In this document: positions 12,401-41,905 of the stretch, piece by piece
Layout: every line of letters starts with the position of its first letter
Position numbering within the stretch: position 1 is the stretch's first letter
NCBI GenBank assembly: GCA_000092065.1
Contig: CP000582.1
DNA length: 64,000 nucleotides
Reading direction: 5' to 3' (one strand)
Source of the DNA: Ostreococcus lucimarinus
Taxonomy: Eukaryota
The notes under the pieces: model-generated
What the model was told of the DNA's origin: nothing
The model's input: only the letters and a program-made list of their open reading frames with translations
The model's database searches: none
Made by a program: the position numbers and the translations under genes

Positions 12401-15400
12401 GGAGGCTATGAATTCACTTTTGTTACGATCGAGCTTGATCTTATGTATTTTGCGATTAGAGCACGCCAACTGTTGAGCAAGAGATTCTTTTAGGCACCGG
12501 TGCAATACATGAAATTTTCTCAGACTTTTGTATTGCGTAAAAGCCTGTAGTAGGATGCTAGAGTGTTGAAACGGCGCATCTTCACCCCGTACAACTAGGG
12601 AAACATTTTCTTTGATGCATTCAGTCTCAGCGCATCGGAACAGTGATGCAAGATACTTGATGGAATTCGTCTCACATAGCTCAACTCGACCTTCCATTTG
12701 CAGCACATAGGCGTGCAATACCATCACCGCATGAGCGACTATTTTTTCACGCATCAGTGATATAAATCGCGCGTGTGCTTGAGTGGTACAAGGTCTTAAG
12801 CTTGTGCTTGGTGAAAATCTTGACACGTACTTGACAATATTGATTCCATTGCTCAAATTATTTTTATGTGGATACCCATTTGCCTTTGTGCGTAGCATTT
12901 TGCATTTCACTTTGAATAACACCACGCAGCCAACCAGATGATTGCCAAGACTCTCACCATGGCTGTCCAATTCAATGTTACAGCGCGTACTTATGCGCCG
13001 CACTGACGTGATCTCAGGAGGAGATGTGCTACAAAACTTTATTATGGTCGGCAGCATCGTCACACACTTTGATACTTTCTGTCCATCTATGACTCCCACA
13101 CTGATCTGCAGAGTCGCGTCAATAATTGAGGGCACATGGCCTGATGTGAAGTTTGTTGATGCAGTCTCAACATGAGCGAGTGCAATGTTCAACCGACGCC
13201 CACTGTCGAAGATCGGGCTCAATGTCTGCGAAGAGAAAACATAAAGTGTGTTGTGTCTATCGCACTTCTTGGATGCATGCTTTATCCTTGCACGACAATG
13301 CTCACCTTGTGAAGTTTCCACTTTGATCGCACCGGTTATGGCGCGGACAGAAACTTCTATACGTTGGTGGTACTGCAAAAGTAATGGCCTCACAATCGCA
13401 AGATCTTGAACCATTGCAGTGTGTAAATCAAATGTACCGCACGCTTGAGCCATGTAATCTATGTACCCAGCCGCTGGAAATAACGGTTTTCCATGGATGC
13501 AATGGTCCGACAGCGCTGGTGTCGGCTGATGGAGGCGCGAAACAATCGAATTGTGGCACACTTTTATCGACGCACCCGAGCTGTGCACTGGAGATGCAAA
13601 CCAGCACTGATTGCAGGAGAATAGCTTGGATGCGACACTATTGCAAGAACAGCCAGAATTTCGTGCTGTCGCCGATAATATCGCGTGAGCGTTTGTACCT
13701 TGAAATGCAAACGAGCTCGTTCCCGTCTTCGCATTTGCTTTATGCACATGCTGGCACGAAGCAGAAGCAGATCGCGGCACAGCAACGTTTGGCTCTTGAG
13801 AGGGATTTATTGACATTGCGTGCCACGCATGTACGTTGAGTAAGCGCATGTGCATTATGCCAGTGTGTCTTTGCATTTCTACGGCACGTGATGCACTTAT
13901 GAGCCCCGCCATACCGGCAGCACATTCAGCGTGCCCCATGTTCGTTTTGATTGCATGCAATCGTAAAGTTTCTGCCTGACCCAAAACAGACATCGCGCCT
14001 CCTACTTCTATGGGGTCACCAAGTGGCGTCCCAGTTCCATGCATTTCAAGGGCCCGCACTTCTAATGGCCGAGTCGAAGCGTTTGCCAGGGCTGATTTGA
14101 TGACTCTGGTCTGCGATGGTCCATTTGGCGCCGTCAACGAGCTCGTTCGACCGTCTTGATTTACTGCGGTCCCACACAGCCACACGCTCTCGCTATTGAC
14201 ATTCGCGGTTGGACTCAGTAATAATGTATCACAGCTTTCGGCTCGCACGTAACCATCCGCGGCCGCATCGAGCGTCTTGCAGCGGCCATCAGGCGCTAGC
14301 ATACCAGCGCGTAGAAACATGGCCGTCGTAGTCTCGGTGAGGATGAGGTTCACGCCACCCGTTACAGTTGAGTCGCACTCACTCTGAAATACAGATGCCA
14401 CACCGAGATGGACTGCCACAAGGGACGAGGAGCAGGCAGTGTCGATACTCATCGCCGATCCTGTGAGATCGAATGTGAAGCATATCCGTCCAGAAGCGAC
14501 ACTCAACGCTTGTGATGTAGCATCTAGTGCACTTGCGGGGACACTTGTGGTTGTGCGCATGACCTCACCATACTCCATCCAAGCGATTCCAATAAACACA
14601 GAAGTGTGAGATATTGTGTATTTCGGTAGACATAGCGAGCTCACGCAGTGTAGTAGCAGACGCTGCTGTGGGTCCATGCTGATCGCCTCTGCTTTTCCAA
14701 TTCGGAAACCTTGCCAGTCGAACATCACGATGCTTTCAACGAAGCAGCCCACTTTTAAACGTGGGTCGCTTTCTCCAAGTTCATCCGACAAAATGCGCCG
14801 TGCTGTTGGCATGAGGGCAATACTGTCGCAGTTTGCGACGCCCGCTGCCCCATGTGAAGTTCCAGATGACACAGCAAGCACACACTGAAGGTTGGGTTGC
14901 ACAAATGGTGCGTTTTGTGGTGAACGACACAGTGCTTCTATCCCGTGCGCTTCGTCACAGCTGTGTTCAACATTTTGCATTAAATATGTGCACAATTTTG
15001 AAATGGTGGGGAAGTCAAATACCAAAGATGGTGCTACTTGCCTGTCGAAGTGTGTCGATATTTTACTGGCTAACTCAATCGCAGATAAAGAATCCAAGCC
15101 GGCGTCGTGGAGGGGGATATCAGGGTCAACATCGAAACCAATCAATGTGCAAACCATCTTATGAAGTAAACTCAGACAGTCCTGGGTGGTGTGACACCGC
15201 ACGCCTGACGTAGTAAACTTTTTCTGACGCTCTAGCGTTGTTTGTTTATCAGCAATTTTCCGAGTGTGCACACTTTGCAAGCCGGTCGTATGTTTCTCAA
15301 GTAGCCAATCAGCCTTCGTCGAGTCACTGGTGAATGCGTTCTGGCATACGACGAGCACTGCGCCACATGATAGAGGTGCATTTTCTATTCTGCGCATGGT

Positions 15401-18400
15401 ACTTTTCAGCGCAGCGAGGGCAGTCTTTGGGTCCATGAAGCCAACTCCTAGACGCGACATATTTCGTTCTATGTACTTATTACGGATCGCCATTCCGACC
15501 TTCCCCCAGGCGCCCCATTGAACGCTGCACACAGGGCGACCAGCTGTGTGCTCAAATTGAGCGAGAGTATCCAAGGCAGAATTTGCGCATGAATAATTTG
15601 CCTGTCCTGGTGAACCTATTCGTGCCGTTATGGAAGAAAAGAAAATGGCGCTTAAAAGCGGTTTGCTTGAGTATAGATCAGCGTCAATGGTGAGAACTTT
15701 AGGAGCAAAGACTTCACGAATGCGTGCTGGCGTTTGTCGCAGAAGCAAGGCATCCGATGTACAACCTGCCGCATGAATAAAGCATAATGAATCCACAGCG
15801 TATCGATTTATCTGTATATTAGTGTGTACGTAGGATTGTACAAACGACACAACGCTGTCACTGTACTGATGCTGTCTTAGCATACAGTTTGTTCGTCCAA
15901 AGCGACTCATTAGTGTATGTGGTGAGCTGTACCTCATTAGGAAAGTACTAGTGAGTTGCCCTGTAGCTCCTGTTCCTCCCATGATGAAGTAAGACCGATT
16001 AAGATCGCAGGAGGCTATGAATTCACTTTTGTTACGATCGAGCTTGATCTTATGTATTTTGCGATTAGAGCACGCCAACTGTTGAGCAAGAGATTCTTTC
16101 AGGCACCGGTGCAATACATGAAATTTTCTCAGACTTTTGTATTGCGTAAAAGCCTGTAGTAGGATGCTAGAGTGTTGAAACGGCGCATCTTCACCCCGTA
16201 CAACTAGGGAAACATTTTCTTTGATGCATTCAGTCTCAGCGCATCGGAACAGTGATGCAAGATACTTGATGGAATTCGTCTCACATAGCTCAACTCGACC
16301 TTCCATTTGCAGCACATAGGCGTGCAATACCATCACCGCATGAGCGACTATTTTTTCACGCATCAGTGATATAAATCGCGCGTGTGCTTGAGTGGTACAA
16401 GGTCTTAAGCTTGTGCTTGGTGAAAATCTTGACACGTACTTGACAATATTGATTCCATTGCTCAAATTATTTTTATGTGGATACCCATTTGCCTTTGTGC
16501 GTAGCATTTTGCATTTCACTTTGAATAACACCACGCAGCCAACCAGATGATTGCCAAGACTCTCACCATGGCTGTCCAATTCAATGTTACAGCGCGTACT
16601 TATGCGCCGCACTGACGTGATCTCAGGAGGAGATGTGCTACAAAACTTTATTATGGTCGGCAGCATCGTCACACACTTTGATACTTTCTGTCCATCTATG
16701 ACTCCCACACTGATCTGCAGAGTCGCGTCAATAATTGAGGGCACATGGCCTGATGTGAAGTTTGTTGATGCAGTCTCAACATGAGCGAGTGCAATGTTCA
16801 ACCGACGCCCACTGTCGAAGATCGGGCTCAATGTCTGCGAAGAGAAAACATAAAGTGTGTTGTGTCTATCGCACTTCTTGGATGCATGCTTTATCCTTGC
16901 ACGACAATGCTCACCTTGTGAAGTTTCCACTTTGATCGCACCGGTTATGGCGCGGACAGAAACTTCTATACGTTGGTGGTACTGCAAAAGTAATGGCCTC
17001 ACAATCGCAAGATCTTGAACCATTGCAGTGTGTAAATCAAATGTACCGCACGCTTGAGCCATGTAATCTATGTACCCAGCCGCTGGAAATAACGGTTTTC
17101 CATGGATGCAATGGTCCGACAGCACTGGTGTCGGCTGATGGAGGCGCGAAACAATCGAATTGTGGCACACTTTTATCGACGCACCCGAGCTGTGCACTGG
17201 AGATGCAAACCAGCACTGATTGCAGGAGAATAGCTTGGATGCGACACTATTGCAAGAACAGCCAGAATTTCGTGCTGTCGCCGATAATATCGCGTGAGCG
17301 TTTGTACCTTGAAATGCAAACGAGCTCGTTCCCGTCTTCGCATTTGCTTTATGCACATGCTGGCACGAAGCAGAAGCAGATCGCGGCACAGCAACGTTTG
17401 GCTCTTGAGAGGGATTTATTGACATTGCGTGCCACGCATGTACGTTGAGTAAGCGCATGTGCATTATGCCAGTGTGTCTTTGCATTTCTACGGCACGTGA
17501 TGCACTTATGAGCCCCGCCATACCGGCAGCACATTCAGCGTGCCCCATGTTCGTTTTGATTGCATGCAATCGTAAAGTTTCTGCCTGACCCAAAACAGAC
17601 ATCGCGCCTCCTACTTCTATGGGGTCACCAAGTGGCGTCCCAGTTCCATGCATTTCAAGGGCCCGCACTTCTAATGGCCGAGTCGAAGCGTTTGCCAGGG
17701 CTGATTTGATGACTCTGGTCTGCGATGGTCCATTTGGCGCCGTCAACGAGCTCGTTCGACCGTCTTGATTTACTGCGGTCCCACACAGCCACACGCTCTC
17801 GCTATTGACATTCGCGGTTGGACTCAGTAATAATGTATCACAGCTTTCGGCTCGCACGTAACCATCCGCGGCCGCATCGAGCGTCTTGCAGCGGCCATCA
17901 GGCGCTAGCATACCAGCGCGTAGAAACATGGCCGTCGTAGTCTCGGTGAGGATGAGGTTCACGCCACCCGTTACAGTTGAGTCGCACTCACTCTGAAATA
18001 CAGATGCCACACCGAGATGGACTGCCACAAGGGACGAGGAGCAGGCAGTGTCGATACTCATCGCCGGTCCTGTGAGATCGAATGTGAAGCATATCCGTCC
18101 AGAAGCGACACTCAACGCTTGTGATGTAGCATCTAGTGCACTTGCGGGGACACTTGTGGTTGTGCGCATGACCTCACCATACTCCATCCAAGCGATTCCA
18201 ATAAACACAGAAGTGTGAGATATTGTGTATTTCGGTAGACATAGCGAGCTCACGCAGTGTAGTAGCAGACGCTGCTGTGGGTCCATGCTGATCGCTTCTG
18301 CTTTTCCAATTCGGAAACCTTGCCAATCAAAGTTCGACACGTTTCTCAGTTTCCACATCGCGCACGACAAGTTTTCATCAAAGTGATAATAATGATCTGT

Positions 18401-20257
18401 TTCGAGAAGCTGTGTCAATTGAGTAGAAACCAGCACGTGTGTTCGCGTAGCTAACAAAAATAGATGATTCTCAGAGTGTTGACGCAATTCGTGTTCAACT
18501 GTCGCGTTCTGTGTCGTCTCCGTAGACTGTCTATATGTTGACTGATCCGTGTTCGTAATAAACGCTGTGATGTCATTGACCGTAGGATAGTCATACAGAA
18601 ATGTTGTCGGTAAGTCAATCTGGAAATACTCACTCATTTCAGCGATTATCACTACTGTCTGTGCTGAAGAAAGTCCCAGTGAATGTATAATCGGCTCATA
18701 CACACATTCAAGTGGAGAAAGTGAATGTGCGCAGCTTTGCAAAGCCTGTAGAACAAGCCATTTATCGTGCTTCTCAACACACTTTTTGGGATGTTTGCCG
18801 GAGAAAGCGCATGTCTGGTTATTTTGATTCGAAGACAGTCGATGTGACGATGGCATTCCAAACAGAAGCACGTCACAAAGAGACGTGACCTGCTCTTTTG
18901 CAATATTGTTATCTTCAACAGTTGGTGCGAGGTCTATATCGCTTCGATATCTTTGTTCGGCAAGCCGAGCACACGGGTACAGTATCGTACCATCGAAAGT
19001 ATCATGCATGTTAGTAACATCTCGTGAATCACTTTTTACGAGTTGGTATGGAGTTCCCGAACAGTTGAAAAAATCCGTCCTCTGTTGAAAGTCTCGCATT
19101 AATGCAAACTTGGAAGCGACTAGCATTTTACCATAATGAAATGGGAGGGTAACAAGTATTGGGCACAGTTTATTGATTTTGGTTTTCGTATCAATCAAGT
19201 CAGTTTGTCTCTCTGCTTCAGCCTCGGCGACGAGAAAAAATATCGAAATACCAGTTGTTGACCCTCCCAGTATGAAACTATCATTATCATTCTCGAGAAG
19301 GAGTCTTATGCGCTCAGCTGGATAAAGCTGTGTATTCAGTCGTTCCACGAATTCAGCCACTTTTGCACGAGTCCATCCACGAAACGCGAACATGTGCACG
19401 CGATTGCAAAGTGACTGATTTCTCAAATCGTTGTCACAAAATACAGTCATATGCCTGACCGTGGACTTTGCCCGAATGGATAACCATAGAAGAAACTTTG
19501 CAATTAATATAGGATACGCCCAGTGCATCCAAGAGTAAGTGAACTTTGCACCAGTCGAAAAAATATTTGAAGAAACTTCCTGTGAGATCCAGCCTTGCGA
19601 GTGCCCGATACTATGGTAGAAAGGTTGAATCTTTCGAAAGAGCAACTTGGAGCTTTTGAGAAACGTACTGAAGTGTACTATGTAGGTCAGTGAAGATGAT
19701 ATCGACGACTCCGCAAATTTATCAATCAATCTTACTTTCATCGGAATTGATTTTGAATAGCATTGTATTCGAATGTGATAGGCATCTGAATTATCGATCG
19801 AGGTTTCATCCAACGCACTGAGACCTTGGCCAGCAAAATTGAATGCATATTCCGTTGACCGTGGCGCAATCTTCGAAACATTATACGAAAAATGCGGTCT
19901 GCGAAGAAGCAGAGATCCATGTCGATAAACTGTTGGATCAAACCGTCTTCTACTCCGCGCCTGTTGAAATAGTTTTGCAGTATGCAAGGTTTCCTCAGGG
20001 CACTTTCCATAACTTTGCATTGAAGCAAAGTAATAGAAGGAGCTCAAATCAACGTCATGATCGAATGCGTCAGTCTGAACACTAAAAAGCTCATCGAAAA
20101 CACCCCAGTACAGCCGATCAAATGCGCTCGTGAAATGATGGGTTATTCTTTTGTGTCCACACCACTGTTCCGACGCCGAGTTGCTCGTGCATAGCTCGAG
20201 GTATGGGAACCCTTGACCCGGGAAATACGTACGCACTGAGACGTTTGGGAGTCGCAT
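1..20257 (-). CDS. Giant type I modular polyketide synthase, partial (C-terminus beyond window start): loading AT-ACP followed by at least 5 KS-KR-ACP modules plus the N-terminus of a sixth KS. No introns or stops found in the stretches translated by hand.
   Basis: Reverse-strand translation read by hand. KS motifs: DTACSSSLVAVHLG (active-site Cys), EMHGTGTPLGDPIE, KTNMGHAECAAGVAGL, SSFAFQGTNAHAIL. KR motifs: YFIMGGTGATGQLTSTFL (Rossmann), GQANYSCANSALDTLAQ plus WGAWGKVGMA (catalytic Tyr). ACP motifs: PLHDAGLDSLSAIEL and NGVDSTFALELADAL. AT motifs: AFNFAGQG and YHSIGHSQG. Frame is continuous 2880->1 (960 codons, no stop), continuous from the loading ACP into KS1, and the 3609-bp repeat is an exact multiple of 3. 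The ORF track lists no minus-strand ORFs here despite this. Confidence 0.85.
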   Translation of the reverse strand, partial: MRLPNVSVRTYFPGQGFPYLELCTSNSASEQWCGHKRITHHFTSAFDRLYWGVFDELFSVQTDAFDHDVDLSSFYYFASMQSYGKCPEETLHTAKLFQQARSRRRFDPTVYRHGSLLLRRPHFSYNVSKIAPRSTEYAFNFAGQGLSALDETSIDNSDAYHIRIQCYSKSIPMKVRLIDKFAESSISSSLTYIVHFSTFLKSSKLLFRKIQPFYHSIGHSQGWISQEVSSNIFSTGAKFTYSWMHWAYPILIAKFLLWLSIRAKSTVRHMTVFCDNDLRNQSLCNRVHMFAFRGWTRAKVAEFVERLNTQLYPAERIRLLLENDNDSFILGGSTTGISIFFLVAEAEAERQTDLIDTKTKINKLCPILVTLPFHYGKMLVASKFALMRDFQQRTDFFNCSGTPYQLVKSDSRDVTNMHDTFDGTILYPCARLAEQRYRSDIDLAPTVEDNNIAKEQVTSLCDVLLFGMPSSHRLSSNQNNQTCAFSGKHPKKCVEKHDKWLVLQALQSCAHSLSPLECVYEPIIHSLGLSSAQTVVIIAEMSEYFQIDLPTTFLYDYPTVNDITAFITNTDQSTYRQSTETTQNATVEHELRQHSENHLFLLATRTHVLVSTQLTQLLETDHYYHFDENLSCAMWKLRNVSNFDWQGFRIGKAEAISMDPQQRLLLHCVSSLCLPKYTISHTSVFIGIAWMEYGEVMRTTTSVPASALDATSQALSVASGRICFTFDLTGPAMSIDTACSSSLVAVHLGVASVFQSECDSTVTGGVNLILTETTTAMFLRAGMLAPDGRCKTLDAAADGYVRAESCDTLLLSPTANVNSESVWLCGTAVNQDGRTSSLTAPNGPSQTRVIKSALANASTRPLEVRALEMHGTGTPLGDPIEVGGAMSVLGQAETLRLHAIKTNMGHAECAAGMAGLISASRAVEMQRHTGIMHMRLLNVHAWHAMSINPSQEPNVAVPRSASASCQHVHKANAKTGTSSFAFQGTNAHAILSATARNSGCSCNSVASKLFSCNQCWFASPVHSSGASIKVCHNSIVSRLHQPTPVLSDHCIHGKPLFPAAGYIDYMAQACGTFDLHTAMVQDLAIVRPLLLQYHQRIEVSVRAITGAIKVETSQGEHCRARIKHASKKCDRHNTLYVFSSQTLSPIFDSGRRLNIALAHVETASTNFTSGHVPSIIDATLQISVGVIDGQKVSKCVTMLPTIIKFCSTSPPEITSVRRISTRCNIELDSHGESLGNHLVGCVVLFKVKCKMLRTKANGYPHKNNLSNGINIVKYVSRFSPSTSLRPCTTQAHARFISLMREKIVAHAVMVLHAYVLQMEGRVELCETNSIKYLASLFRCAETECIKENVSLVVRGEDAPFQHSSILLQAFTQYKSLRKFHVLHRCLKESLAQQLACSNRKIHKIKLDRNKSEFIASCDLNRSYFIMGGTGATGQLTSTFLMRYSSPHTLMSRFGRTNCMLRQHQYSDSVVSFVQSYVHTNIQINRYAVDSLCFIHAAGCTSDALLLRQTPARIREVFAPKVLTIDADLYSSKPLLSAIFFSSITARIGSPGQANYSCANSALDTLAQFEHTAGRPVCSVQWGAWGKVGMAIRNKYIERNMSRLGVGFMDPKTALAALKSTMRRIENAPLSCGAVLVVCQNAFTSDSTKADWLLEKHTTGLQSVHTRKIADKQTTLERQKKFTTSGVRCHTTQDCLSLLHKMVCTLIGFDVDPDIPLHDAGLDSLSAIELASKISTHFDRQVAPSLVFDFPTISKLCTYLMQNVEHSCDEAHGIEALCRSPQNAPFVQPNLQCVLAVSSGTSHGAAGVANCDSIALMPTARRILSDELGESDPRLKVGCFVESIVMFDWQGFRIGKAEAISMDPQQRLLLHCVSSLCLPKYTISHTSVFIGIAWMEYGEVMRTTTSVPASALDATSQALSVASGRICFTFDLTGSAMSIDTACSSSLVAVHLGVASVFQSECDSTVTGGVNLILTETTTAMFLRAGMLAPDGRCKTLDAAADGYVRAESCDTLLLSPTANVNSESVWLCGTAVNQDGRTSSLTAPNGPSQTRVIKSALANASTRPLEVRALEMHGTGTPLGDPIEVGGAMSVLGQAETLRLHAIKTNMGHAECAAGMAGLISASRAVEMQRHTGIMHMRLLNVHAWHAMSINPSQEPNVAVPRSASASCQHVHKANAKTGTSSFAFQGTNAHAILSATARNSGCSCNSVASKLFSCNQCWFASPVHSSGASIKVCHNSIVSRLHQPTPALSDHCIHGKPLFPAAGYIDYMAQACGTFDLHTAMVQDLAIVRPLLLQYHQRIEVSVRAITGAIKVETSQGEHCRARIKHASKKCDRHNTLYVFSSQTLSPIFDSGRRLNIALAHVETASTNFTSGHVPSIIDATLQISVGVIDGQKVSKCVTMLPTIIKFCSTSPPEITSVRRISTRCNIELDSHGESLGNHLVGCVVLFKVKCKMLRTKANGYPHKNNLSNGINIVKYVSRFSPSTSLRPCTTQAHARFISLMREKIVAHAVMVLHAYVLQMEGRVELCETNSIKYLASLFRCAETECIKENVSLVVRGEDAPFQHSSILLQAFTQYKSLRKFHVLHRCLKESLAQQLACSNRKIHKIKLDRNKSEFIASCDLNRSYFIMGGTGATGQLTSTFLMRYSSPHTLMSRFGRTNCMLRQHQYSDSVVSFVQSYVHTNIQINRYAVDSLCFIHAAGCTSDALLLRQTPARIREVFAPKVLTIDADLYSSKPLLSAIFFSSITARIGSPGQANYSCANSALDTLAQFEHTAGRPVCSVQWGAWGKVGMAIRNKYIERNMSRLGVGFMDPKTALAALKSTMRRIENAPLSCGAVLVVCQNAFTSDSTKADWLLEKHTTGLQSVHTRKIADKQTTLERQKKFTTSGVRCHTTQDCLSLLHKMVCTLIGFDVDPDIPLHDAGLDSLSAIELASKISTHFDRQVAPSLVFDFPTISKLCTYLMQNVEHSCDEAHGIEALCRSPQNAPFVQPNLQCVLAVSSGTSHGAAGVANCDSIALMPTARRILSDELGESDPRLKVGCFVESIVMFDWQGFRIGKAEAISMDPQQRLLLHCVSSLCLPKYTISHTSVFIGIAWMEYGEVMRTTTSVPASALDATSQALSVASGRICFTFDLTGSAMSIDTACSSSLVAVHLGVASVFQSECDSTVTGGVNLILTETTTAMFLRAGMLAPDGRCKTLDAAADGYVRAESCDTLLLSPTANVNSESVWLCGTAVNQDGRTSSLTAPNGPSQTRVIKSALANASTRPLEVRALEMHGTGTPLGDPIEVGGAMSVLGQAETLRLHAIKTNMGHAECAAGMAGLISASRAVEMQRHTGIMHMRLLNVHAWHAMSINPSQEPNVAVPRSASASCQHVHKANAKTGTSSFAFQGTNAHAILSATARNSGCSCNSVASKLFSCNQCWFASPVHSSGASIKVCHNSIVSRLHQPTPALSDHCIHGKPLFPAAGYIDYMAQACGTFDLHTAMVQDLAIVRPLLLQYHQRIEVSVRAITGAIKVETSQGEHCRARIKHASKKCDTSMKQFDSPTIAPLLRSNVHVVTHSISSYDLHHNAASLSNTSAAFIIAVNAVIGDAVSQKIAIKGLRWFASCGVSIFESVSKVKTVGSYTISGCSMSLDKLLGFDSQFKASSLTCKAPCKIQNITIFYECQDADFEPVPRKIQACSVMQVAADIALLTSLMRRHIELIHCTNATKQLHQICKVAVQENIVPSNSYVDQHKFFDKTVPSALYLRLSDEKGKKTEQLTIIGGSGGIGRLIRTKMQCIKLPNRSGKSQIYVHERTFYIECFMYVWRTHNHNCMLTDKCSSIRLVHAAGCTSDALLLRQTPARIREVFAPKVLTIDADLYSSKPLLSAIFFSSITARIGSPGQANYSCANSALDTLAQFEHTAGRPVCSVQWGAWGKVGMAIRNKYIERNMSRLGVGFMDPKTALAALKSTMRRIENAPLSCGAVLVVCQNAFTSDSTKADWLLEKHTTGLQSVHTRKIADKQTTLERQKKFTTSGVRCHTTQDCLSLLHKMVCTLIGFDVDPDIPLHDAGLDSLSAIELASKISTHFDRQVAPSLVFDFPTISKLCTYLMQNVEHSCDEAHGIEALCRSPQNAPFVQPNLQCVLAVSSGTSHGAAGVANCDSIALMPTARRILSDELGESDPRLKVGCFVESIVMFDWQGFRIGKAEAISMDPQQRLLLEHSQRLFHSHLFSIYTGISLGISSYPEVSLGAREHSCAYSASGQHISVASGRLAYIFDMQGPAVSVDTACSSALVAMYIARRETLGCRNTFDAVHDMLCGGVHIISPRNSYLCYLAGMLSAEGRCKVLDMHADGYVRGECCELQILSRCKSHTQRCVLMACTVAQDGRTSSLTAPNGIAQVILISTTAHAATVEVDHIGAIQLHGTGTILGDPIEVSSTFKALRPPMKVSHAPLMAQAVKSRSGHAEPASGCASFAHLVHSLSESAAIAIVHLRHLNAHVSDVLSLNSKIQLALFTRENMQSLSRTQAISSFAFQGTNAHAIVSVAHDEFQIRRQLACKSIMYTPIDCWGLQIMAPFRAHVTNRVLETVFLLNHVENQFLTDHQVLNRTCLPGTLLAQILRESMKNITKNQTLLLLRDVVFIKPAHFGNVQIKIWQRTGILSNAGSAINCTFSFALTSLTHTQQRVHTYTKKHCEKQSKILGRVDSQHRPSPFTMSATCDACLQICQTYSITAGYLPKAVESIRQNCMASHSMDVMDSKCMMQTASAGEVHASFILYSAGNKTSAMMTMHGCTASIIRMRHLSSLMTTERKSCGALDFVHSVYYETENSRSIHAPEWPSRPALFGVETASMMCFMQSKYVKVQSPALSSVGHSHLEAVLRCIMYEEGKQKRVTNSTFRKVKMPCQLRISVQQQFLYPKMQVATDSNQSILVEIKRSFASGSSVKSMLMNAKVAHIPFIGVVATKLSKSSLNAGDVILCTASYEQLQNSSQYIWIEMSQMHFVHYSCLLSLVRTQTEERIERERFRTMSNHHTQCSVSDEELNQNIIAFLKHLRYNLPSEHFISNRCEYWGITGGTGGIGVMNVGWLAHNHNVLGICVSCRSGKSAKPKLFNHWRISLKLRQDDSCASTTVLPYEGDTNTFGIVHMSGVTKDALHASQNPHSIRSTFAPKTGSFSCSKTHLHHAMLVSIVFSSLAVFGSIGQANYSSANATLDMMSAHKKASGMNIVSTRWGAWSAVGMAIDTRRISANTAFMPSINPHLALDILKNLYVLSSDIFSAPCYSVIGQKLHNQAHLGSGFNSHELSSKDDATIYSTKAGAEDETHDDLISLEGLIFRNLSSITGINQDEKSINTPLTSLGLDSIGMSQLAMSLAVETSLNLPHTLGFDYPTVKSLARHLADRLQSSSSSSIQSRQSLRVLEGSSAENLGNRSITLASFYGNMSTATYDDEVTLVDSRFDSFFESGNPPFAFHMNNVNNFDAHIFDLNERTTAQMDPRQRTLLKCTFGCIYDDQGVIDGQTGCFIGVSADEYGALRLIFPLNFRDVPASSVSSVASGRICFTFDLTGPAMSIDTACSSSLVAVHLGVASVFQSECDSTVTGGVNLILTETTTAMFLRAGMLAPDGRCKTLDAAADGYVRAESCDTLLLSPTANVNSESVWLCGTAVNQDGRTSSLTAPNGPSQTRVIKSALANASTRPLEVRALEMHGTGTPLGDPIEVGGAMSVLGQAETLRLHAIKTNMGHAECAAGVAGLISASRAVEMQRHTGIMHMRLLNVHAWHAMSINPSQEPNVAVPRSASASCQHVHKANAKTGTSSFAFQGTNAHAILSATVYSALYKRPMDGNPLLLDEKYLLHDYMTVECKAYYLDSSQWLTFKQRNNMDNDIARMSDLLFAVHSVVGITTNERLTMLSQVVLTTHNAVKDNLVVHLCERTSVFKVVGSNGVNTGKGCVTVTPQVRDRRFLSVCQFFRNSISTCRAMEHTLFSDTGVKEQLLKSCMHHFLRISCAMVQFSRLLNTTCAHRTVSNRKITRTKSRIQSSNNLIECEESASQIRRRAKLPTHQYVANWVYGAAKHQRIDGTDCINFGSFKASRIGKRAFNLDLCDIVPYQRVEDSSYTFASIYASMFTFLPLISIVSRSCSSTCFNLATQPRPASEAACTFGTMESLIQALHLEYPHVQVALAPKPVFEKFTFLSCSSCKMRVEAGKIFTQRLAQVSLRSTLREGRQREFAWTCSHNVLTYGGTHGITAHLINNLKRHSHCNVCIVGRTGRSRVLHVDPTFSTEDDYLTISRACVCNLDELAAIKSRFCKDQNKKLSVIHSAGVFQMTPVKHLTPAQMMAVFVPKVATSVQAKKDNTPWLFPSHSRQIDIFLSSISAVFGLGRAASYAASNAYIDELSLWFHSFGSEIISIRLGPFASVGMALNATWDSSILGLTSICPNKLCSIISKCHLTRALPGVLVVKLDMQKYDSQFRVLLNQTEHSLQQWDLLDDLLDRVKHPSTQIVSDDNYLEAMHVDVVQSHVASVVQRVLTDLRGCRNGPFSLDESVMTNGVDSTFALELADALSSKLHIDVPKLVAFEHPTLRSLIRFLSQQNQCMLSESHQNQISIQRSSCSLTTQHKRHSIDVRVYAKTFHSQSTVTHKIPLFDAIQGLEKRWIIDLFKFDTLDGALPPSFGGFIAQVYHFDANTFDMSRMEARLCDPQQRVLLGTAASLLDKKYCVNGCAKSVFVGITSSDYARILRDKSTLANGYESATNVSNVAAGRISFTFNFTGQSI
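540..4050 (-). other. PKS module 5: KS-KR-ACP.
   Basis: KS C-terminal 2/3 (2832-3664) is identical to the array KS, while its N-terminal part is divergent. KR: LSVIHSAGV and GLGRAASYAASNAYID (about 1150-1380). ACP: NGVDSTFALELADALSSKLHIDVPKLVAFEHPTLRSLIRFL (about 540-720). Confidence 0.75.
4150..7990 (-). other. PKS module 4: divergent KS-KR-ACP.
   Basis: Divergent KS: AVSVDTACSSALVA (about 7425-7466), HGTGTILGDPIEV, SSFAFQGTNAHAIV (about 6692-6733). KR: GQANYSSANATLD...RWGAWSAVGMA (about 4690-4760). ACP: SLGLDSIGMSQLAMSLA (about 4200-4250). Confidence 0.65.
8000..11370 (-). other. PKS module 3: KS-KR-ACP, with a mosaic KR.
   Basis: KS Cys about 10826. Region 9645-10316 is identical to the other copies, 8770-9645 is divergent, and 7625-8770 is identical again (KR Tyr about 8595, ACP Ser about 8091). 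Confidence 0.7.
11390..14980 (-). other. PKS module 2: KS-KR-ACP with no AT.
   Basis: KS Cys codon about 14435; KR Rossmann about 15954/12345 (copies); KR Tyr about 11985; ACP Ser about 11481. The gap from KS C-terminus (SSFAFQGTNAHAIL at about 13684) to KR Tyr is about 563 aa, too short to hold an AT plus the KR N-terminal subdomain. Confidence 0.75.
15000..18520 (-). other. PKS module 1: KS-KR-ACP with no AT.
   Basis: KS Cys codon about 18044; KR catalytic Tyr about 15594; ACP Ser about 15090. Sequence identical to modules 2/3 (tandem copy). Confidence 0.75.
18560..18800 (-). other. PKS loading ACP domain.
   Basis: Translation ...YEPIIHSLGLSSAQTVVIIAEMSEYFQIDLPTTFLYDYPTVNDITAFI has ACP-like helix II/III context; LGLSS is the probable phosphopantetheine site (Ser codons about 18665-18670). 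Leads directly in frame into the KS1 N-terminus (...NFDWQGFRIGKAEAISMDPQQRLLLH). Confidence 0.6.
18950..20257 (-). other. PKS loading acyltransferase (AT) domain; candidate start codon at 20257.
   Basis: In-frame stop TAA at 20338-20340, then MRLPNVSVRTYFPGQG... About 150 aa later comes AFNFAGQGLSALDE, and about 73 aa after that GHSQG (plus 19590-19604, minus strand). That spacing is typical of malonyl-CoA:ACP transacylase-type ATs. Start codon uncertain; an upstream exon is possible. Confidence 0.6.
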
Positions 20258-20513
20258 GACCGCCTGTTGATAATCGTAGGAAATTTTTTACACAAGTGAC
20301 GCGATATGGTGCGATGCGATCTGGCGCGCATAGTACGTTTCTGTACTTGTGTAGCATAACGATGTGACAACTGTGCTACTTGATAGGAAATACTTCGGAA
20401 GTACGTAAGCGGGCGAAACTTTTATAGTTCGTGTGTGCCTTAGGAAGCATATTGTCTGCAAGGAAATGATTTAATGTGCTCGTTTTACACTATCTATACC
20501 AAGTAAATGCTAT

Positions 20514-23258
20514 CTAGTCGTAGGTCTTCTTCAGATAGCTGATGATATCGACACTCTCGAATAACGAGATCCCGGTGTTCGGATCTTCAAGATAAGGTAC
20601 TTGAAATATACCGGTGCGATTGAGAAGCAAACTCCTTCTTGGGCTACCGCGTGCACATGGACGAAAAACATAAGAAATTCCCCGCTCGTTCAGAGCTTTT
20701 CGCACTAGAGCGCAAAATGGAGAAGCTTCGTAACCCCAAAAAATCAAAGGCTGCTCACCTGCACGTGAAGTACGCCGATGCGAAGCATCATTGATCTTTG
20801 ACGCTTGAGCGAACCTCTGAAACAATGAGACAAGAGAAGCTGGTTCTTCGCCATCCAGATACTCCTGATAGAGATACTGAATGATGCCGTCAGCACCTTT
20901 CACAGCGATGTCGTCGTTTCGATCATCTCGTAGGAAAGGGACTACTTCAGACCCAAGTTCAACACCCTGTAGAATCGCTAACTCGGAGCTATTCGAACAC
21001 GACGCGGTAGGACACGGTTTGCACAAGTAACTCACGTCACAAATACTCAAAACCTCTCGTACAAGCCGACAGGAGTCGTCATCCTCGACGTCATAAAGTG
21101 TCAGCGTTGGTGGAGCTGGCGTAGCGTCGGCACGTTCTTTGACTGCCTCTCTCAGACGGTGGCTACCAAGCTTGCTGACCTCCAAAAACCGTAGTCCAGC
21201 GCCTCTCACGAAAGCGTACTCTGTAACGTTTTCACGCGCGATGCGTGGGGACCAACCGTGTACAAACAGACCCAAAGCAACTCGAGAGAGCCCTTTCCAA
21301 ACAGCCTCGAGAAGCTCTCCTCGCTGCGACTGTTCGAAGGCAAACATCTTTGGCTCATTAACTTGAAAATTCGCACTGAGTGCTTCAAATGCTACTGCTG
21401 TGTCTTCAAATGTTGCACCTGGGTATTTTAGATCCGCCCGCCACATGCAATGAGCCCCATATGGCACTCTTTCGGGCAGAAGAATTGTTGCTACGGGACC
21501 AGCCTCTACATCTTGTGCATCAATTATGACGCACTCGGTGCGCCCATTAACGTCTGTTGCTGTATAGCTCTCATCATGAACGTACATAACTAACCAGCCA
21601 TCATCTTCATCTACACCTCCTGGTCTTCCAACAAACTGGGCTTCCATACCGTAACGGTTTGGACCATGCTCATAAGTGACCGTCTTCTGCTCTTGCATAT
21701 CAATTTTCACGACTGCGTCAAACTTGAGCTGAGTGGTCGATTCCAACTCTGACAAAAGGACTCGCCCGGCGTAGGCGTACCTGTTTCGCCTTCCAACAAA
21801 TGCGTCGTTGATGCGTGGGGTTTCTAAAGGAATACTAAATAGATATCTTTCTGTGACCTTTCCAGTGACAAGATTTATTCTCCATTCATGAACTTTTGGA
21901 ATCTTGCCAACTCGCACGGCCTCTTTGATCCACTCACTTGAACCGTTAGCGCGCATCGCCTCTTGGAAAAAGCCGTCTTCACGAATTCCAGTAATGACTA
22001 TCAACTGCTCATTCCTTTCATTTTTTTCCTCCCACGAATTGATGAAGTGGTATACCATTTGTGACGAGCTACAATTAAACCAAGTCACGCTTGTTGACTG
22101 TGCATCTCTATTCAACACTCCAAAACGCGCCCGCTTGTCTTCGTTATACTGAAGAGGGTGTTTCCCTAGCAACTGTCGAACAGGCTTGATATCCATGCTG
22201 CCTTCAAAAAGAACCGTAAAATGCTCAGTTACACAGAAATCGTGCATGAAAATGCTACCAACAAACGGGATAGACCAAAGCGAGTTGATGCTCGAGATTG
22301 TACCATCTGGCTTCAACGTACCCACAGAGCAATGTGGCGGTGAGACTGGATTGAAACCAAAGAAAATAAGTTCACCGGTTGACGGTAACACTTTTGGATG
22401 CGCAGTGAAAGGAACGTAAGGAGGTAGTTTGCCATCAAACGTACATGCTGAAATTGTTTCGAGGGTATCTGGATCAAGTTCCCAAGGCGGACAGGTATCC
22501 TGTAGCGCGAACGTCCTACCAGCAAAATGGAGAAGCGCCGTATTTGCACTGTCTTTCATAAACATTCCACCCGTGATGAGGTTGGAAAGTGCATTTGCCA
22601 GAAATGTTCCACCGTCAGCATTCATGAGTGGTCTAAATATGCGTTTTCCGCTTTCAATCTCACGCTTCCAGCTAGACGTCCGAATAAAACGATTTCTAAA
22701 TTTAACTCTGTTGCCAGTGCAAAAGTCTACAGCGTAGATCATACCATCACCCTCGAACCAATGATGCCAGCCTGATCCTAAACCAAAATCTACTTGCCCT
22801 GGACCTGCACCCCAACGCTTGTAGTGATCAACAGCAAACTTTGGATTGGGGCCTACGTACGCGTACTGACCGAGTGGAAAATCGCTTGGAATTTTACCGT
22901 TAATTTTCATCGTCGAAGAATCATCACCAGCTTGCGCATCATAATCGCAACAGGCCGTGACTTCCTGTCCTACCGGATAATAGTTTCCAGAAAGAAAAGC
23001 GGCACCATGTTCGCCGTATTCCACTGGATCTAGAAGTTGATACGACGTAGAAGCGGCGGCAGAAATATAGCCTGTATCCTCATCACTCGAAGGCTGAATT
23101 GAATCTATTTCTTGGATCGTTCTCGTAGACAAATCTGTTTCCGTTTGTACTCGAAGTATAGAGGACACACGCCTTGTCTGCAAACTAAGAAGACAGCTCT
23201 TGCGGCGGTATGTTTTATAGTAGCGCACAGGAGCGTTGTGTGCCGATAGTGAGCCCAT
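20514..23258 (-). CDS. Carotenoid cleavage dioxygenase (RPE65/CCD family) fused at its C-terminus to two GST-N/glutaredoxin-2-like thioredoxin-fold domains; N-terminal transit-peptide-like region.
   Basis: 914-aa ORF in the track. CCD-family features include FDGDGMIYAVDF, multiple conserved His/Glu-containing blades, and a FINSWEE-like segment. C-terminal TLYDVEDDDSCRLVREVL... and LIFWGYEASPFCALVRKALNERGISY...FQVPYLEDPNTGISLFESVDIISYL resemble GST N-terminal/Grx2 folds. Sits 256 bp upstream of the PKS start on the same strand. Confidence 0.7.
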   Translation of the reverse strand: MGSLSAHNAPVRYYKTYRRKSCLLSLQTRRVSSILRVQTETDLSTRTIQEIDSIQPSSDEDTGYISAAASTSYQLLDPVEYGEHGAAFLSGNYYPVGQEVTACCDYDAQAGDDSSTMKINGKIPSDFPLGQYAYVGPNPKFAVDHYKRWGAGPGQVDFGLGSGWHHWFEGDGMIYAVDFCTGNRVKFRNRFIRTSSWKREIESGKRIFRPLMNADGGTFLANALSNLITGGMFMKDSANTALLHFAGRTFALQDTCPPWELDPDTLETISACTFDGKLPPYVPFTAHPKVLPSTGELIFFGFNPVSPPHCSVGTLKPDGTISSINSLWSIPFVGSIFMHDFCVTEHFTVLFEGSMDIKPVRQLLGKHPLQYNEDKRARFGVLNRDAQSTSVTWFNCSSSQMVYHFINSWEEKNERNEQLIVITGIREDGFFQEAMRANGSSEWIKEAVRVGKIPKVHEWRINLVTGKVTERYLFSIPLETPRINDAFVGRRNRYAYAGRVLLSELESTTQLKFDAVVKIDMQEQKTVTYEHGPNRYGMEAQFVGRPGGVDEDDGWLVMYVHDESYTATDVNGRTECVIIDAQDVEAGPVATILLPERVPYGAHCMWRADLKYPGATFEDTAVAFEALSANFQVNEPKMFAFEQSQRGELLEAVWKGLSRVALGLFVHGWSPRIARENVTEYAFVRGAGLRFLEVSKLGSHRLREAVKERADATPAPPTLTLYDVEDDDSCRLVREVLSICDVSYLCKPCPTASCSNSSELAILQGVELGSEVVPFLRDDRNDDIAVKGADGIIQYLYQEYLDGEEPASLVSLFQRFAQASKINDASHRRTSRAGEQPLIFWGYEASPFCALVRKALNERGISYVFRPCARGSPRRSLLLNRTGIFQVPYLEDPNTGISLFESVDIISYLKKTYD

Positions 23259-41832: not shown

Positions 41833-41905
41833 TGGCGACACCGCGGATCGAACGCGGGACCTTTAGATCTTCAGTCTAACGCTCTCCCAACTGAGCTATG
41901 TCACC
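41833..41905 (-). tRNA. tRNA-Phe (anticodon GAA).
   Basis: Minus-strand sequence GGTGACATAGCTCAGTTGGGAGAGCGTTAGACTGAAGATCTAAAGGTCCCGCGTTCGATCCGCGGTGTCGCCA. Acceptor GGTGACA/TGTCGCC; anticodon loop CTGAAGA; T-loop TTCGATC. Close to canonical eukaryotic tRNA-Phe. Confidence 0.9.

What the first reader, a model, noticed from the sequence alone, without database searches (positions are those of the whole stretch)
20258..23258. Carotenoid-cleavage dioxygenase fused to tandem GST-N/glutaredoxin-like domains, immediately upstream of the PKS on the same strand
A 914-aa single-exon ORF combines a transit-peptide-like N-terminus, a full RPE65/CCD domain and two C-terminal thioredoxin-fold (GST N-terminal/Grx2-like) domains. 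Only a 256-bp gap separates its stop (20514) from the PKS start (20257) on the same strand. A redox-partner domain fused to a CCD is unusual, and the tight tandem arrangement suggests co-regulation with the PKS.
Basis: partly seen in the sequence, partly recalled or inferred. Interest (0 to 1): 0.6.

Follow-up and report, generated by a model that had tools for sequence, protein, structure and literature searches.

The report
Carotenoid dioxygenase fused to GST2N protein
This is a real, single-exon gene of the tiny marine green alga Ostreococcus lucimarinus that joins a carotenoid-cleaving enzyme to a complete two-domain glutathione-binding protein of unknown function; the fusion is already flagged in public genome annotations but has not been studied in any paper I found.

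Summary
ORF 20514..23258(-) encodes 914 aa: a disordered targeting-like N-terminus, a full RPE65/CCD domain with all four Fe-ligand His, and two thioredoxin-fold domains. A giant KS-DH-KR-ACP PKS starts 256 bp downstream on the same strand.

It is not new. The protein is identical to O. lucimarinus XP_001416379.1, "Carotenoid dioxygenase plastidic fusion protein, putative". The Micromonas pusilla ortholog is named "epoxycarotenoid cleavage enzyme fused with transferase". The fusion is shared by Ostreococcus, Bathycoccus and Micromonas, and MMETSP transcripts carry it as one ORF.

What I add: the C-terminal ~280 aa is a whole copy of the orphan GST2N class (two GST-N domains, no C-domain), which is free-standing in plants, other algae and cyanobacteria. 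In the fusions, domain 1 has lost its CPFC/ES glutathione site, and here its first Cys too. Domain 2 (EASPFC...QVP...FES, serine-type) is the most conserved part of the protein. This argues for a glutathione-binding module rather than a dithiol redox partner.

PKS adjacency holds only in part of Ostreococcus. The gap is of ordinary length, and giant PKSs are a known feature of this low-GC outlier region. Co-regulation is unsupported.

The parts
23028..23258 (-). aa 1-77: targeting-peptide-like N-terminus (probable plastid transit peptide)
   Evidence: pLDDT <30 for aa 1-72. First 40 aa are 15% Ser, 7.5% Thr, 15% Arg, 0% Asp. Pairwise identity in the family is 15.6%. GenBank's name says 'plastidic'. 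Localisation itself was not tested.
21438..23027 (-). aa 78-607: carotenoid cleavage dioxygenase (RPE65-family) seven-bladed propeller domain
   Evidence: Pfam RPE65 361 bits. Best solved relatives are plant CCD1 9luz (E 1e-55), Synechocystis ACO and maize VP14. Foldseek TM-score normalised to the target is 0.75-0.85. Family pairwise identity is 60.8%.
22761..22763 (-). His166, Fe ligand 1 (WHHWFEGDGM motif)
   Evidence: Invariant in A1 and A3. Codon checked.
22398..22400 (-). His287, Fe ligand 2 (TAHPK motif)
   Evidence: Invariant.
22242..22244 (-). His339, Fe ligand 3 (MHDF motif)
   Evidence: Invariant.
21450..21452 (-). His603, Fe ligand 4 (PYGAH motif)
   Evidence: Present in 31 of 31 fusion proteins.
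21354..21437 (-). aa 608-635: unconserved spacer joining the CCD to the GST2N module
   Evidence: 14% pairwise identity. Low pLDDT for aa 621-630.
21111..21353 (-). aa 636-716: GST2N 'pre-domain' (hydrophobic helix 643-658, beta-hairpin, helix 699-711)
   Evidence: Shared with free-standing eukaryotic GST2N proteins. 45.6% pairwise identity. Secondary structure.
20859..21110 (-). aa 717-800: GST2N domain 1, a thioredoxin fold with a degenerate active site
   Evidence: Pfam GST_N_3 only 18.4 bits. Trx fold in both models. The CPFC and ES motifs of free-standing relatives are replaced by DDSC and GA.
21069..21080 (-). DDSC (aa 727-730): remnant of the CPFC dithiol motif
20751..20858 (-). aa 801-836: inter-domain linker
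   Evidence: 34.5% pairwise identity. Low pLDDT for aa 820-830.
20517..20750 (-). aa 837-914: GST2N domain 2, a thioredoxin fold with a complete serine-type glutathione site
   Evidence: GST_N_3 55.6 bits. E[AVP]SPFC / QVP / [FY]ES kept in 31 of 31 fusions; in the free-standing forms Ser and Phe of SPF are kept and the motif Cys varies. This is the most conserved region, at 70.2% pairwise identity.
20712..20729 (-). EASPFC (aa 844-849): active-site motif of domain 2
20258..20513 (.). 256-bp intergenic gap between the fusion gene's stop and the PKS ATG
   Evidence: Comparable gaps are 261, 232 and 153 bp in relatives, and 88 bp to an unrelated kinase gene in L010.
2..20257 (-). Neighbour, not part of the fusion: giant modular type I PKS, cut off by the window edge (over 6,750 aa here)
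   Evidence: Stop-free frame. KS, DH, KR and ACP repeated, no AT hit. Probably OluPKS3, inferred from the published module-duplication description (PMC4661987).

Best explanation
This is the nuclear gene for Ostreococcus lucimarinus XP_001416379.1, a probably plastid-targeted bifunctional protein that arose once in an ancestor of the Mamiellales.

Shown:
- The N-terminal part is a catalytically competent carotenoid/apocarotenoid cleavage dioxygenase. It has the 4-His Fe(II) centre and conserved second-shell Glu residues.
- The C-terminal ~280 aa is a complete copy of a GST2N-class protein: a pre-domain plus two GST-N thioredoxin folds, with no GST C-domain.
- Within that module, domain 1 has lost its ancestral CPFC/ES glutathione-dithiol site and now looks structural.
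- Domain 2 keeps every canonical G-site element: Ser846 at the helix alpha-1 N-terminus, the cis-Pro 'QVP', and 'FES'. It is under the strongest constraint in the whole protein.

Inferred mechanism:
- The CCD cleaves a plastid carotenoid double bond with O2, giving polyene aldehydes or ketones.
- Domain 2 holds glutathione as a thiolate next to it. It then carries out a glutathione-dependent step on the CCD's substrate or electrophilic product, such as thiol-catalysed isomerisation, (endo)peroxide reduction or transient adduct formation. Alternatively it couples CCD activity to the stromal glutathione state.
- By Rosetta-stone logic, free-standing GST2N proteins of plants and cyanobacteria would work in the same pathway.

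The PKS downstream is a neighbour by descent in the low-GC outlier region of chromosome 2, not a demonstrated functional partner.

The confidence given (0.5) is for the statement as a whole. The identity and architecture part stands at about 0.95. The specific 'glutathione-dependent step on substrate or product' part stands at about 0.35.
For: Identity: exact match to XP_001416379.1 / ABO94672.1.

CCD competence: RPE65 at 361 bits. H166, H287, H339 and H603 are kept in 31 of 31 fusions; E200 and E539 are invariant and E410 is at least 90% conserved. The fold matches CCD1, VP14 and ACO with TM-score (target-normalised) 0.75-0.85.

GST2N identity: aa 621-914 aligns over 95-98% of its length to free-standing 313-350 aa proteins of Chlorella, grasses, Carpinus, Elaeis, Chloropicon and the diatom Seminavis (87% to a 500-aa Chara protein), and over 66% to ~230 aa bacterial and cyanobacterial ones. 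These show the 'two Trx domains, CPFC in one, no C-domain' signature, which Lallement 2014 (PMC4138524) and PMC5000609 define as 2-GST_N / GST2N.

Fold: the module models as one compact unit, pLDDT 87 and pTM 0.87.

Motif decay and conservation. Per-region identity: domain 2 70%, CCD 61%, domain 1 47%.

Single origin: among the 150 best of 868 relatives, only the three fusion-family representatives exceed 800 aa. Named members come from O. tauri, Bathycoccus prasinos and Micromonas pusilla.

One transcript: MMETSP complete ORFs of 919 aa.

Domain 2's nearest solved folds are Ser/Tyr-type GST N-domains: GSTFuA, maize GST I, Ure2p, epsilon and zeta.
Against: - No biochemical data exist for this protein or for any GST2N protein. 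PMC5000609 lists the class function as 'N/A'.
- Koschmieder et al. 2022 (PMC9035014) found no enzymatic or non-enzymatic glutathionylation of beta-apocarotenoids in Arabidopsis. This counts against simple conjugation of CCD products.
- GST2N lacks the GST C-domain that normally forms the hydrophobic H-site.
- Bacterial GST2N genes show no recurrent neighbour and no carotenoid genes nearby.
- The CCD's substrate and cleavage position cannot be read from 27-30% identity to CCD1, NCED or ACO.
- I could not inspect model coordinates, so the contact between the CCD tunnel and domain 2 is untested.
- Plastid targeting is inferred from composition and disorder only.
Confidence: 0.5

Rival explanations
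1. Redox-partner or regulatory model. The GST2N module acts as a glutaredoxin-like thiol switch. It keeps the CCD iron or cysteines reduced, or turns the CCD on and off by (de)glutathionylation according to stromal redox state.
For: - Free-standing GST2N proteins carry a CPFC dithiol site.
- Some relatives are fused to a CP12 domain, a known thioredoxin-regulated scaffold (PF02672 in P0187, P0194, P0207 and others).
- The longer (997-1153 aa) subgroup of the fusions keeps CGxC or CGxS in domain 1.
- Cys849 and Cys868 of domain 2 are invariant in all 31 fusions but variable in free-standing forms.
- The plastid 'glutaredoxin' AT5G03880 is co-expressed with plastoglobule genes (10.1101/2021.02.05.430006). 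Its identity with GST2N rests on my memory only.
Against: - In this protein and the whole 902-943 aa subgroup, the nucleophilic first Cys of domain 1 is gone (DDSC here).
- The glutathione-anchoring ES pair of domain 1 is missing in 31 of 31 fusions.
- Domain 2 has Ser, not Cys, at the nucleophile position.
- The CCD catalytic cycle needs no external electrons (established knowledge).
Confidence: 0.25
2. Biosynthetic-cluster model. The CCD-GST2N gene and the downstream giant PKS are co-regulated and act in one pathway, for example with an apocarotenoid-derived starter unit or tailoring of the polyketide.
For: - Same strand, with a 256-bp gap.
- The arrangement is retained in a 93%-identical relative, in O. 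tauri and in a 62%-identical lineage, although the PKS N-terminus has diverged to 27-36% identity.
Against: - The fusion is far older than the adjacency. There is no PKS next to it in L004/L005, L006/L007, L008, L009 (~52% identity, Bathycoccus-like), L010 or M. pusilla L012.
- Gaps of 88-261 bp are ordinary in these genomes.
- Giant PKSs are a general, structurally unstable feature of the BOC1 outlier region (10.1101/2025.04.21.649811).
- Eukaryotic adjacency is weak evidence of co-function.
- No carotenoid link is mentioned in either PKS paper.
Confidence: 0.07
3. Ligandin or membrane-tether model. The GST2N module has no chemistry of its own. It anchors the CCD to thylakoid or plastoglobule lipid, or binds and delivers the hydrophobic carotenoid.
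For: - The conserved hydrophobic helix 643-658 (LLEAVWKGLSRVALGLFVHGW) of the pre-domain is shared with free-standing eukaryotic GST2N proteins.
- GSTs are known ligandins, and human GSTP1 binds zeaxanthin (my own knowledge, not checked here).
- CCDs act at membrane surfaces (established knowledge).
Against: The strongest conservation falls on the glutathione-site residues of domain 2 (SPFC, QVP, FES), not only on hydrophobic surfaces. A pure tether would not need these residues.
Confidence: 0.15

Closest known systems
Plant CCD1 / NCED (VP14) and cyanobacterial ACO: carotenoid cleavage dioxygenases of the RPE65 family
   Same: Full-length RPE65 domain, four His iron ligands in the canonical motifs, second-shell Glu residues and the seven-bladed propeller fold.
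   Different: - Only 24-30% identity, so it cannot be assigned to any plant CCD class.
- A family-specific insertion of about 20 aa (HYKRWGxGPGQ...) lies before the first His motif.
- It carries a ~300-aa C-terminal GST2N module that no characterised CCD has.
GST2N (2-GST_N) class of the GST superfamily: free-standing plastid and cyanobacterial proteins with two GST-N domains
   Same: Colinear over pre-domain, domain 1, linker and domain 2 (95-98% coverage, 30-40% identity). Same serine-type SPF motif, QVP and FES in domain 2.
   Different: - Fused behind a CCD rather than free-standing.
- Domain 1 has lost the class-defining CPFC motif and its ES pair.
- Cys849 and Cys868 are fixed in the fusions only.
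Orthologous annotated fusions: M. pusilla XP_003056575.1 ('epoxycarotenoid cleavage enzyme fused with transferase'), O. tauri XP_003074820.2, B. prasinos CAL6311430.1
   Same: Same architecture and the same invariant residues. 46-66% identical over nearly the full length.
   Different: - The Micromonas-type proteins are longer (about 1000-1150 aa) and keep CGxC or CGxS in domain 1.
- The M. pusilla gene does not translate straight through, so it probably has an intron.
- Only some Ostreococcus copies sit next to the PKS.
mPGES-2 and Grx2-type CPFC GST/glutaredoxins
   Same: Thioredoxin-fold G-site architecture. The ancestral CPFC motif of GST2N domain 1 is the same as that of mPGES-2 (PMC4138524).
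   Different: No GST C-domain. In this protein the CPFC is destroyed. No significant sequence match to any solved mPGES-2 or Grx2.

Membership tests
Carotenoid cleavage dioxygenase (RPE65 family, PF03055) | Full-length match to the family profile above the curated threshold | tested here: met
   361 bits against a cutoff of 27; profile positions 13-468 of 469.
Carotenoid cleavage dioxygenase (RPE65 family, PF03055) | Four conserved His that ligate Fe(II) | tested here: met
   H166, H287, H339 and H603 lie in the WHHWFEGDGM, TAHPK, MHDF and PYGAH motifs. They are conserved in 31 of 31 fusions and align with plant CCD1 and NCED3.
Carotenoid cleavage dioxygenase (RPE65 family, PF03055) | Three second-shell Glu residues that hydrogen-bond the His ligands | tested here: met
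   E200 and E539 are invariant and E410 is at least 90% conserved in A1. Their assignment as the second-shell residues is by motif position, not by structure.
Carotenoid cleavage dioxygenase (RPE65 family, PF03055) | Seven-bladed beta-propeller fold | tested here: met
   Foldseek against PDB: CCD1, VP14, ACO and LSD at TM-score (target-normalised) 0.75-0.85, E down to 5e-35.
Carotenoid cleavage dioxygenase (RPE65 family, PF03055) | Oxidative cleavage of a carotenoid or apocarotenoid double bond (as opposed to stilbene or isoeugenol substrates) | not testable with these tools
   Needs an enzyme assay. The nearest characterised relatives are carotenoid enzymes, but at 27-30% identity.
GST2N / 2-GST_N class | Two tandem GST N-terminal (thioredoxin-fold) domains | tested here: met
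   Two beta-alpha-beta-alpha-beta-beta-alpha units at 719-800 and 838-913. Pfam GST_N_3 reports two stretches.
GST2N / 2-GST_N class | No GST C-terminal helical domain | tested here: met
   The protein ends at the last helix of domain 2. No GST_C hit at E up to 10.
GST2N / 2-GST_N class | [quoted passage not shown] | tested here: not met
   Domain 1 reads DDSC here. Within the fusion family it is CGxC or CGxS in the long subgroup and lacks the first Cys in the short subgroup. Homology to the class is unambiguous, so this is a derived, degenerate member rather than a typical one.
GST2N / 2-GST_N class | End-to-end sequence homology with recognised class members | tested here: met
   E 1e-33 to 1e-43 with 87-98% coverage to plant and algal 'GST N-terminal domain-containing' proteins (313-350 aa; Chara 500 aa). 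The size matches the 336-338 aa B. oleracea GST2N proteins. Equivalence with Arabidopsis AT5G03880 was not tested.
Glutaredoxin (dithiol oxidoreductase) | CxxC or CxxS active site with an N-terminal nucleophilic Cys | tested here: not met
   Domain 1 has DDSC and domain 2 has SPFC; neither has Cys at the nucleophile position. Pfam Glutaredoxin scores 13.7-17 bits, below the 22.9 cutoff.
Biosynthetic gene cluster with the adjacent PKS | Adjacency conserved wherever both genes exist, or co-expression | tested here: not met
   Adjacency holds in only 4 of 10 lineages examined. Co-expression is not testable here.

The most novel reading that the evidence does not exclude
The fusion is a Rosetta stone for the orphan GST2N class. 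GST2N proteins, which are conserved from cyanobacteria to land plants and have no assigned function, would be glutathione-dependent partners of carotenoid cleavage or turnover in plastids. They might act on oxidised carotenoids or on the reactive apocarotenal products. In Mamiellales this partnership became a single polypeptide in which only the serine-type domain 2 is still needed.
Probability: 0.25. Interest if true: 0.6.

Novelty: already known. Interest (0 to 1): 0.33.

Why it matters
As a sequence feature it is already catalogued. The same protein is in GenBank and UniProt and is named a fusion, and the neighbouring PKS is published.

Its remaining value is as a lead. GST2N is a universally conserved but functionally blank GST class of oxygenic phototrophs. 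How plastids handle carotenoid breakdown products is still unsettled. A natural CCD-GST2N fusion, in which the glutathione site of one domain is the most constrained part of the protein, gives a concrete hypothesis that can be tested cheaply: one recombinant protein and a few point mutants. It also warns against reading gene adjacency in compact picoeukaryote genomes as operon-like co-regulation.

Tried and rejected
- The ORF listing did not show the PKS because the frame runs off the window edge. I recovered it with a stop-to-stop scan.
- Rfam and tRNA scans of the window found only tRNA-Gly and tRNA-Phe, nothing near the gene.
- The sequence search of the C-terminal module against PDB gave only marginal single-domain GST hits (E at least 0.09). 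Foldseek also found no two-domain match (TM-score normalised to the query at most 0.27). No GST2N structure is solved.
- The AFDB50 fold library, which could have linked the module to a named Arabidopsis protein, was unavailable. The AT5G03880 = GST2N link therefore remains my recollection only.
- Model coordinates are not exposed in the sandbox. I could not measure the CCD-GST2N interface or the Cys849-Cys868 distance.
- Operon context of three bacterial GST2N genes showed no recurrent partner.
- Literature searches for a description of the CCD-GST fusion found none. They found only the class definition of GST2N and the PKS and outlier-chromosome papers.
- The idea that the first ~520 aa of the PKS is a diverged acyltransferase, from FPGQG/GHSQG-like motifs seen in the and 22 alignments, got no HMM or PDB support. 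Only a loading ACP at aa 525-567 was found.
- I considered simple GSH conjugation of apocarotenals as the main mechanism and down-weighted it because of PMC9035014.
- I considered an assembly or annotation artefact joining two genes and rejected it. The join is conserved across three genera (Ostreococcus, Bathycoccus, Micromonas), many metagenome contigs and MMETSP transcripts.


Full report
**1. What is in the sequence.**

The reported ORF is exactly there: 20514..23258 on the minus strand, ATG start, 914 aa. Pfam gives a full-length RPE65/carotenoid-oxygenase domain (aa 116-607, 361 bits) and GST_N_3 with two stretches.

Scanned separately, the last domain (aa 842-913) scores 55.6 bits. The upstream one scores only 18.4 bits, below the 22-bit cutoff. 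On Pfam evidence alone the 'tandem' claim would therefore be shaky.

The PKS did not appear in the ORF list because its frame runs off the left edge of the window. A stop-to-stop scan shows an open frame of 6,762 aa from 20287 down to base 2, with an ATG at 20257. It contains repeated KS, DH, KR and ACP domains and has no AT hit. The gap between the stop at 20514 and that ATG is 256 bp.

**2. Identity and provenance.**

The 914-aa sequence is an exact match to Ostreococcus lucimarinus CCE9901 XP_001416379.1 / ABO94672.1 / UniProt A4RT45. The depositors named it 'Carotenoid dioxygenase plastidic fusion protein, putative'.

The window has about 46% GC and contains a Tc5/DDE transposase. It therefore lies in the low-GC 'BOC1' outlier region of chromosome 2. 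Giant, structurally unstable type I PKS genes are a published hallmark of that region (10.1101/2025.04.21.649811). Shelest et al. 2015 list three PKSs for O. lucimarinus and describe near-identical duplicated modules in OluPKS3 (PMC4661987). This matches the 3,609-bp repeat I see at 9649 to about 18295, with only three mismatches.

**3. The fusion is real, old and confined to one clade.**

About 34 protein clusters share the RPE65 + GST_N_3 architecture at 42-93% identity, most with over 90% coverage. Named members:
- O. tauri: XP_003074820.2.
- O. mediterraneus and Ostreococcus sp. RCC789: MMETSP transcripts marked 'type:complete', 919 aa. The two halves are therefore transcribed as one ORF.
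- Bathycoccus prasinos: CAL6311430.1.
- Micromonas pusilla CCMP1545: XP_003056575.1, annotated 'epoxycarotenoid cleavage enzyme fused with transferase'.

The fusion thus predates the split of Bathycoccaceae and Mamiellaceae, and two annotation teams had already noticed it.

An exhaustive HMMER search of 1.84 billion representatives with the C-terminal module found 868 relatives. Among the best 150, only the three representatives of this family exceed 800 aa. All others are 79-569 aa. Fusion to a CCD therefore appears to have happened once.

**4. The CCD half.**

In a 31-sequence alignment of the fusion family, H166, H287, H339 and H603 are invariant and sit in the canonical WHHWFEGDGM, TAHPK, MHDF and PYGAH motifs. 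E200 and E539 are invariant and E410 is nearly so.

The best solved relatives are:
- plant CCD1 (9luz, E 1e-55, 27-30% identity),
- Synechocystis ACO,
- maize VP14.

The AlphaFold2 model (mean pLDDT 80) superposes on these at TM-score (target-normalised) 0.75-0.85. A family-specific insertion of about 20 aa precedes the first His motif. Nothing argues against an active dioxygenase. Substrate and cleavage position cannot be inferred at this distance.

**5. The N-terminus.**

Residues 1-72 are disordered in the model. They are rich in Ser, Thr and Arg, with no Asp in the first 40 aa, and are essentially unconserved at 15.6% pairwise identity. This fits a chloroplast transit peptide, as the GenBank name asserts. 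I did not test localisation.

**6. The C-terminal half is a complete GST2N protein.**

Searched alone, aa 621-914 matches free-standing 313-350 aa 'GST N-terminal domain-containing' proteins over 95-98% of its length. These come from Chlorella, grasses, Carpinus, Elaeis, Chloropicon and a diatom; a 500-aa Chara protein matches over 87%. It also matches ~230 aa cyanobacterial and bacterial proteins over 66% of its length. Some relatives carry a CP12 domain.

[quoted passage not shown] That is the definition of the '2-GST_N' / GST2N class (Lallement et al. 2014, PMC4138524; PMC5000609; PMC13495499). No function is assigned to the class.

The module models as one compact unit (pLDDT 87, pTM 0.87), with two canonical beta-alpha-beta-alpha-beta-beta-alpha folds plus a helix/hairpin pre-domain. 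This settles the doubt left by the weak Pfam score of domain 1.

No solved structure covers the two-domain arrangement. Only single GST N-domains align: GSTFuA, maize GST I, Ure2p, epsilon, zeta and Grx3.

**7. What changed on fusion.**

Free-standing GST2N proteins have the following:
- Domain 1: YEFE[G/A/S]CPFCRKVRE ... FPY..DPNTG..YES.
- Domain 2: YE[A/G]SPF[C/V/S]..VRE ... FQVPYLEDPNTG..FES.

In all 31 fusion proteins the ES pair of domain 1 is gone. The CPFC has become CGxC or CGxS in the longer (997-1153 aa) subgroup, which includes the Micromonas pusilla cluster. In the 902-943 aa subgroup, which includes Ostreococcus, Bathycoccus and this window, it has lost its first Cys (DDSC here).

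Domain 2 is untouched: E[A/V/P]SPFC, QVP and [F/Y]ES are kept in 31 of 31, and Cys849 and Cys868 are additionally fixed. Domain 2 is the most conserved region of the protein:

| Region | Mean pairwise identity |
|---|---|
| Domain 2 | 70% |
| CCD core | 61% |
| Domain 1 | 47% |
| Spacer between the halves | 14% |

The serine-type motif resembles conjugating or isomerising GSTs rather than glutaredoxins (my reading of the motif; class knowledge from PMC4138524 and PMC5000609).

**8. How it most likely works.**

Shown: an intact CCD is covalently tied to an intact, strongly constrained glutathione-type site, and the ancestral dithiol site is decaying.

Inferred: domain 2 binds glutathione. It either performs a thiol-dependent step on the CCD's substrate or on its electrophilic polyene-carbonyl product (isomerisation, peroxide or endoperoxide reduction, or a transient adduct), or it couples the enzyme to the glutathione pool.

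I put about 0.35 on the specific 'GSH-dependent step on substrate or product' reading and about 0.95 on the architecture and identity.

Against simple conjugation: Koschmieder et al. 2022 found no glutathionylation of beta-apocarotenoids in Arabidopsis (PMC9035014). GST2N also lacks an H-site domain.

Rivals:
- A thiol-switch or redox role (0.25). It is helped by the CP12-fused relatives and the fixed Cys849/Cys868. It is hurt by the loss of every nucleophilic Cys here.
- A ligandin or membrane-tether role (0.15).
- A pathway link to the PKS (0.07).

**9. The PKS neighbourhood.**

| Lineage / locus | Identity to the window protein | PKS directly downstream on the same strand? |
|---|---|---|
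| O. lucimarinus (window) | 100% | yes |
| L001 | 93% (PKS N-terminus 90% identical) | yes |
| O. tauri, L011 | 66% (orthologous ORF starts about 150 bp after the stop; 36% identity, E 7e-123) | yes |
| L002/L003 | 62% (27% identity, E 2e-53) | yes |
| L008 | 60% | no (tblastn finds nothing in the 1.1 kb available) |
| L009 (Bathycoccus-like, unnamed) | 52% | no |
| L004/L005 | 49% | no; kinase + 2OG oxygenase |
| L010 | 46% | no; kinase + 2OG oxygenase |
| L006/L007 | 46% | no |
| M. pusilla, L012 | ~44% (cluster of P0023) | no |

The adjacency is therefore a lineage-specific arrangement within Ostreococcus, younger than the fusion. Its gap (153-261 bp) is in the normal range for these genomes; the gap to an unrelated kinase in L010 is 88 bp. 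This does not exclude co-expression, but it gives no positive evidence for it.

**10. Verdict.**

Its two interpretive steps, 'redox partner' and 'co-regulated with the PKS', are not supported.

The feature is already known at the database level, and the PKS is published. The biology of the fusion is unexplored. My incremental findings are:
- the identification of the partner as a whole GST2N protein;
- the asymmetric decay of domain 1 against the hyper-conservation of domain 2;
- the apparently single origin of the fusion in Mamiellales;
- the limited extent of the PKS synteny.

I score interest at 0.33: ordinary as a discovery, but a good handle on an orphan protein class.

Noticed in passing
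window 9649-18295 (- strand PKS): There are about 2.4 tandem copies of a 3,609-bp unit (one 1,203-aa PKS module), with only three mismatches between successive copies. Further partial copies lie at 2832-3621 and 7656-8776, at offsets of 7,227 and 3,390 bp. This is consistent with the published OluPKS3 module duplications. Identity this high could also reflect recent gene conversion or assembly collapse or expansion.
   Followed up: partly
window 18695-20257 (-), PKS aa 1-~520: The first ~520 aa of the PKS match no Pfam family and no PDB sequence. Only a loading ACP follows, at aa 525-567. The region is conserved in relatives (90%, 36% and 27% identity) and contains FPGQG- and GHSQG-like motifs reminiscent of acyltransferases, but no HMM supports that reading.
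   Followed up: partly
L011:1-1888 (O. tauri chromosome 2, upstream of the fusion gene): A gene with an 11,265-aa product ends with a Sulfotransfer_3 domain (105.6 bits). It is probably another giant PKS with a terminal sulfotransferase, about 8 kb upstream of the O. tauri CCD-GST2N gene. I did not check the rest of that gene.
   Followed up: no
window 28108-30741 (+): An 877-aa ORF carries Tc5-transposase HTH and DDE_1 endonuclease domains, so a pogo/Tc5-type DNA transposon is present. This is notable because the 2025 preprint describes O. lucimarinus outlier regions as largely free of transposable elements.
   Followed up: no
window 42181-45462 (-): A 1,093-aa intact LacZ-type GH2 beta-galactosidase has all five domains (345-bit TIM barrel). 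It sits next to tRNA-Phe at 41833-41905. This is an unusual enzyme for a picoalga and a possible horizontal acquisition. I did not examine it.
   Followed up: no
window 47689-48648 (+), 56098-57150 (-), 60656-62071 (+), 62269-63927 (-): These ORFs show an ABC1-kinase fragment, a ChlI-like Mg-chelatase AAA+ domain, a geranylgeranyl-reductase-like FAD enzyme and a TIMELESS domain. The ABC1 and TIMELESS ORFs match only part of their profiles, which suggests small introns splitting the genes, as reported for BOC1. TIMELESS and ABC1 also flank the fusion gene in the distant locus L004, hinting at ancient loose synteny.
   Followed up: partly
proteins P0187, P0194, P0207, P0211, P0219, P0242, P0254, P0255, P0261, P0281, P0286: A second kind of GST2N fusion exists: free-standing GST2N proteins of about 335-457 aa with a C-terminal CP12 domain (PF02672). 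One comes from the red alga Agarophyton. This links the class to thioredoxin-regulated Calvin-cycle control.
   Followed up: no
L012:10001-13250 (Micromonas pusilla CCMP1545): The M. pusilla ortholog does not translate straight from the locus: 3,250 nt encode 1,054 aa. It probably contains a short intron, unlike the intron-less Ostreococcus copies.
   Followed up: no
window 39777-41663 (-) and 49091-50794 (+): Two long ORFs (628 and 567 aa) have no Pfam match at E up to 1e-4.
   Followed up: no
cluster of P0023: A EukProt entry attributed to the pelagophyte Pelagococcus subviridis (P0531, 1,004 aa) falls in the same 90%-identity cluster as the Micromonas pusilla protein. Most likely this is Micromonas contamination of that dataset.
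   Followed up: no
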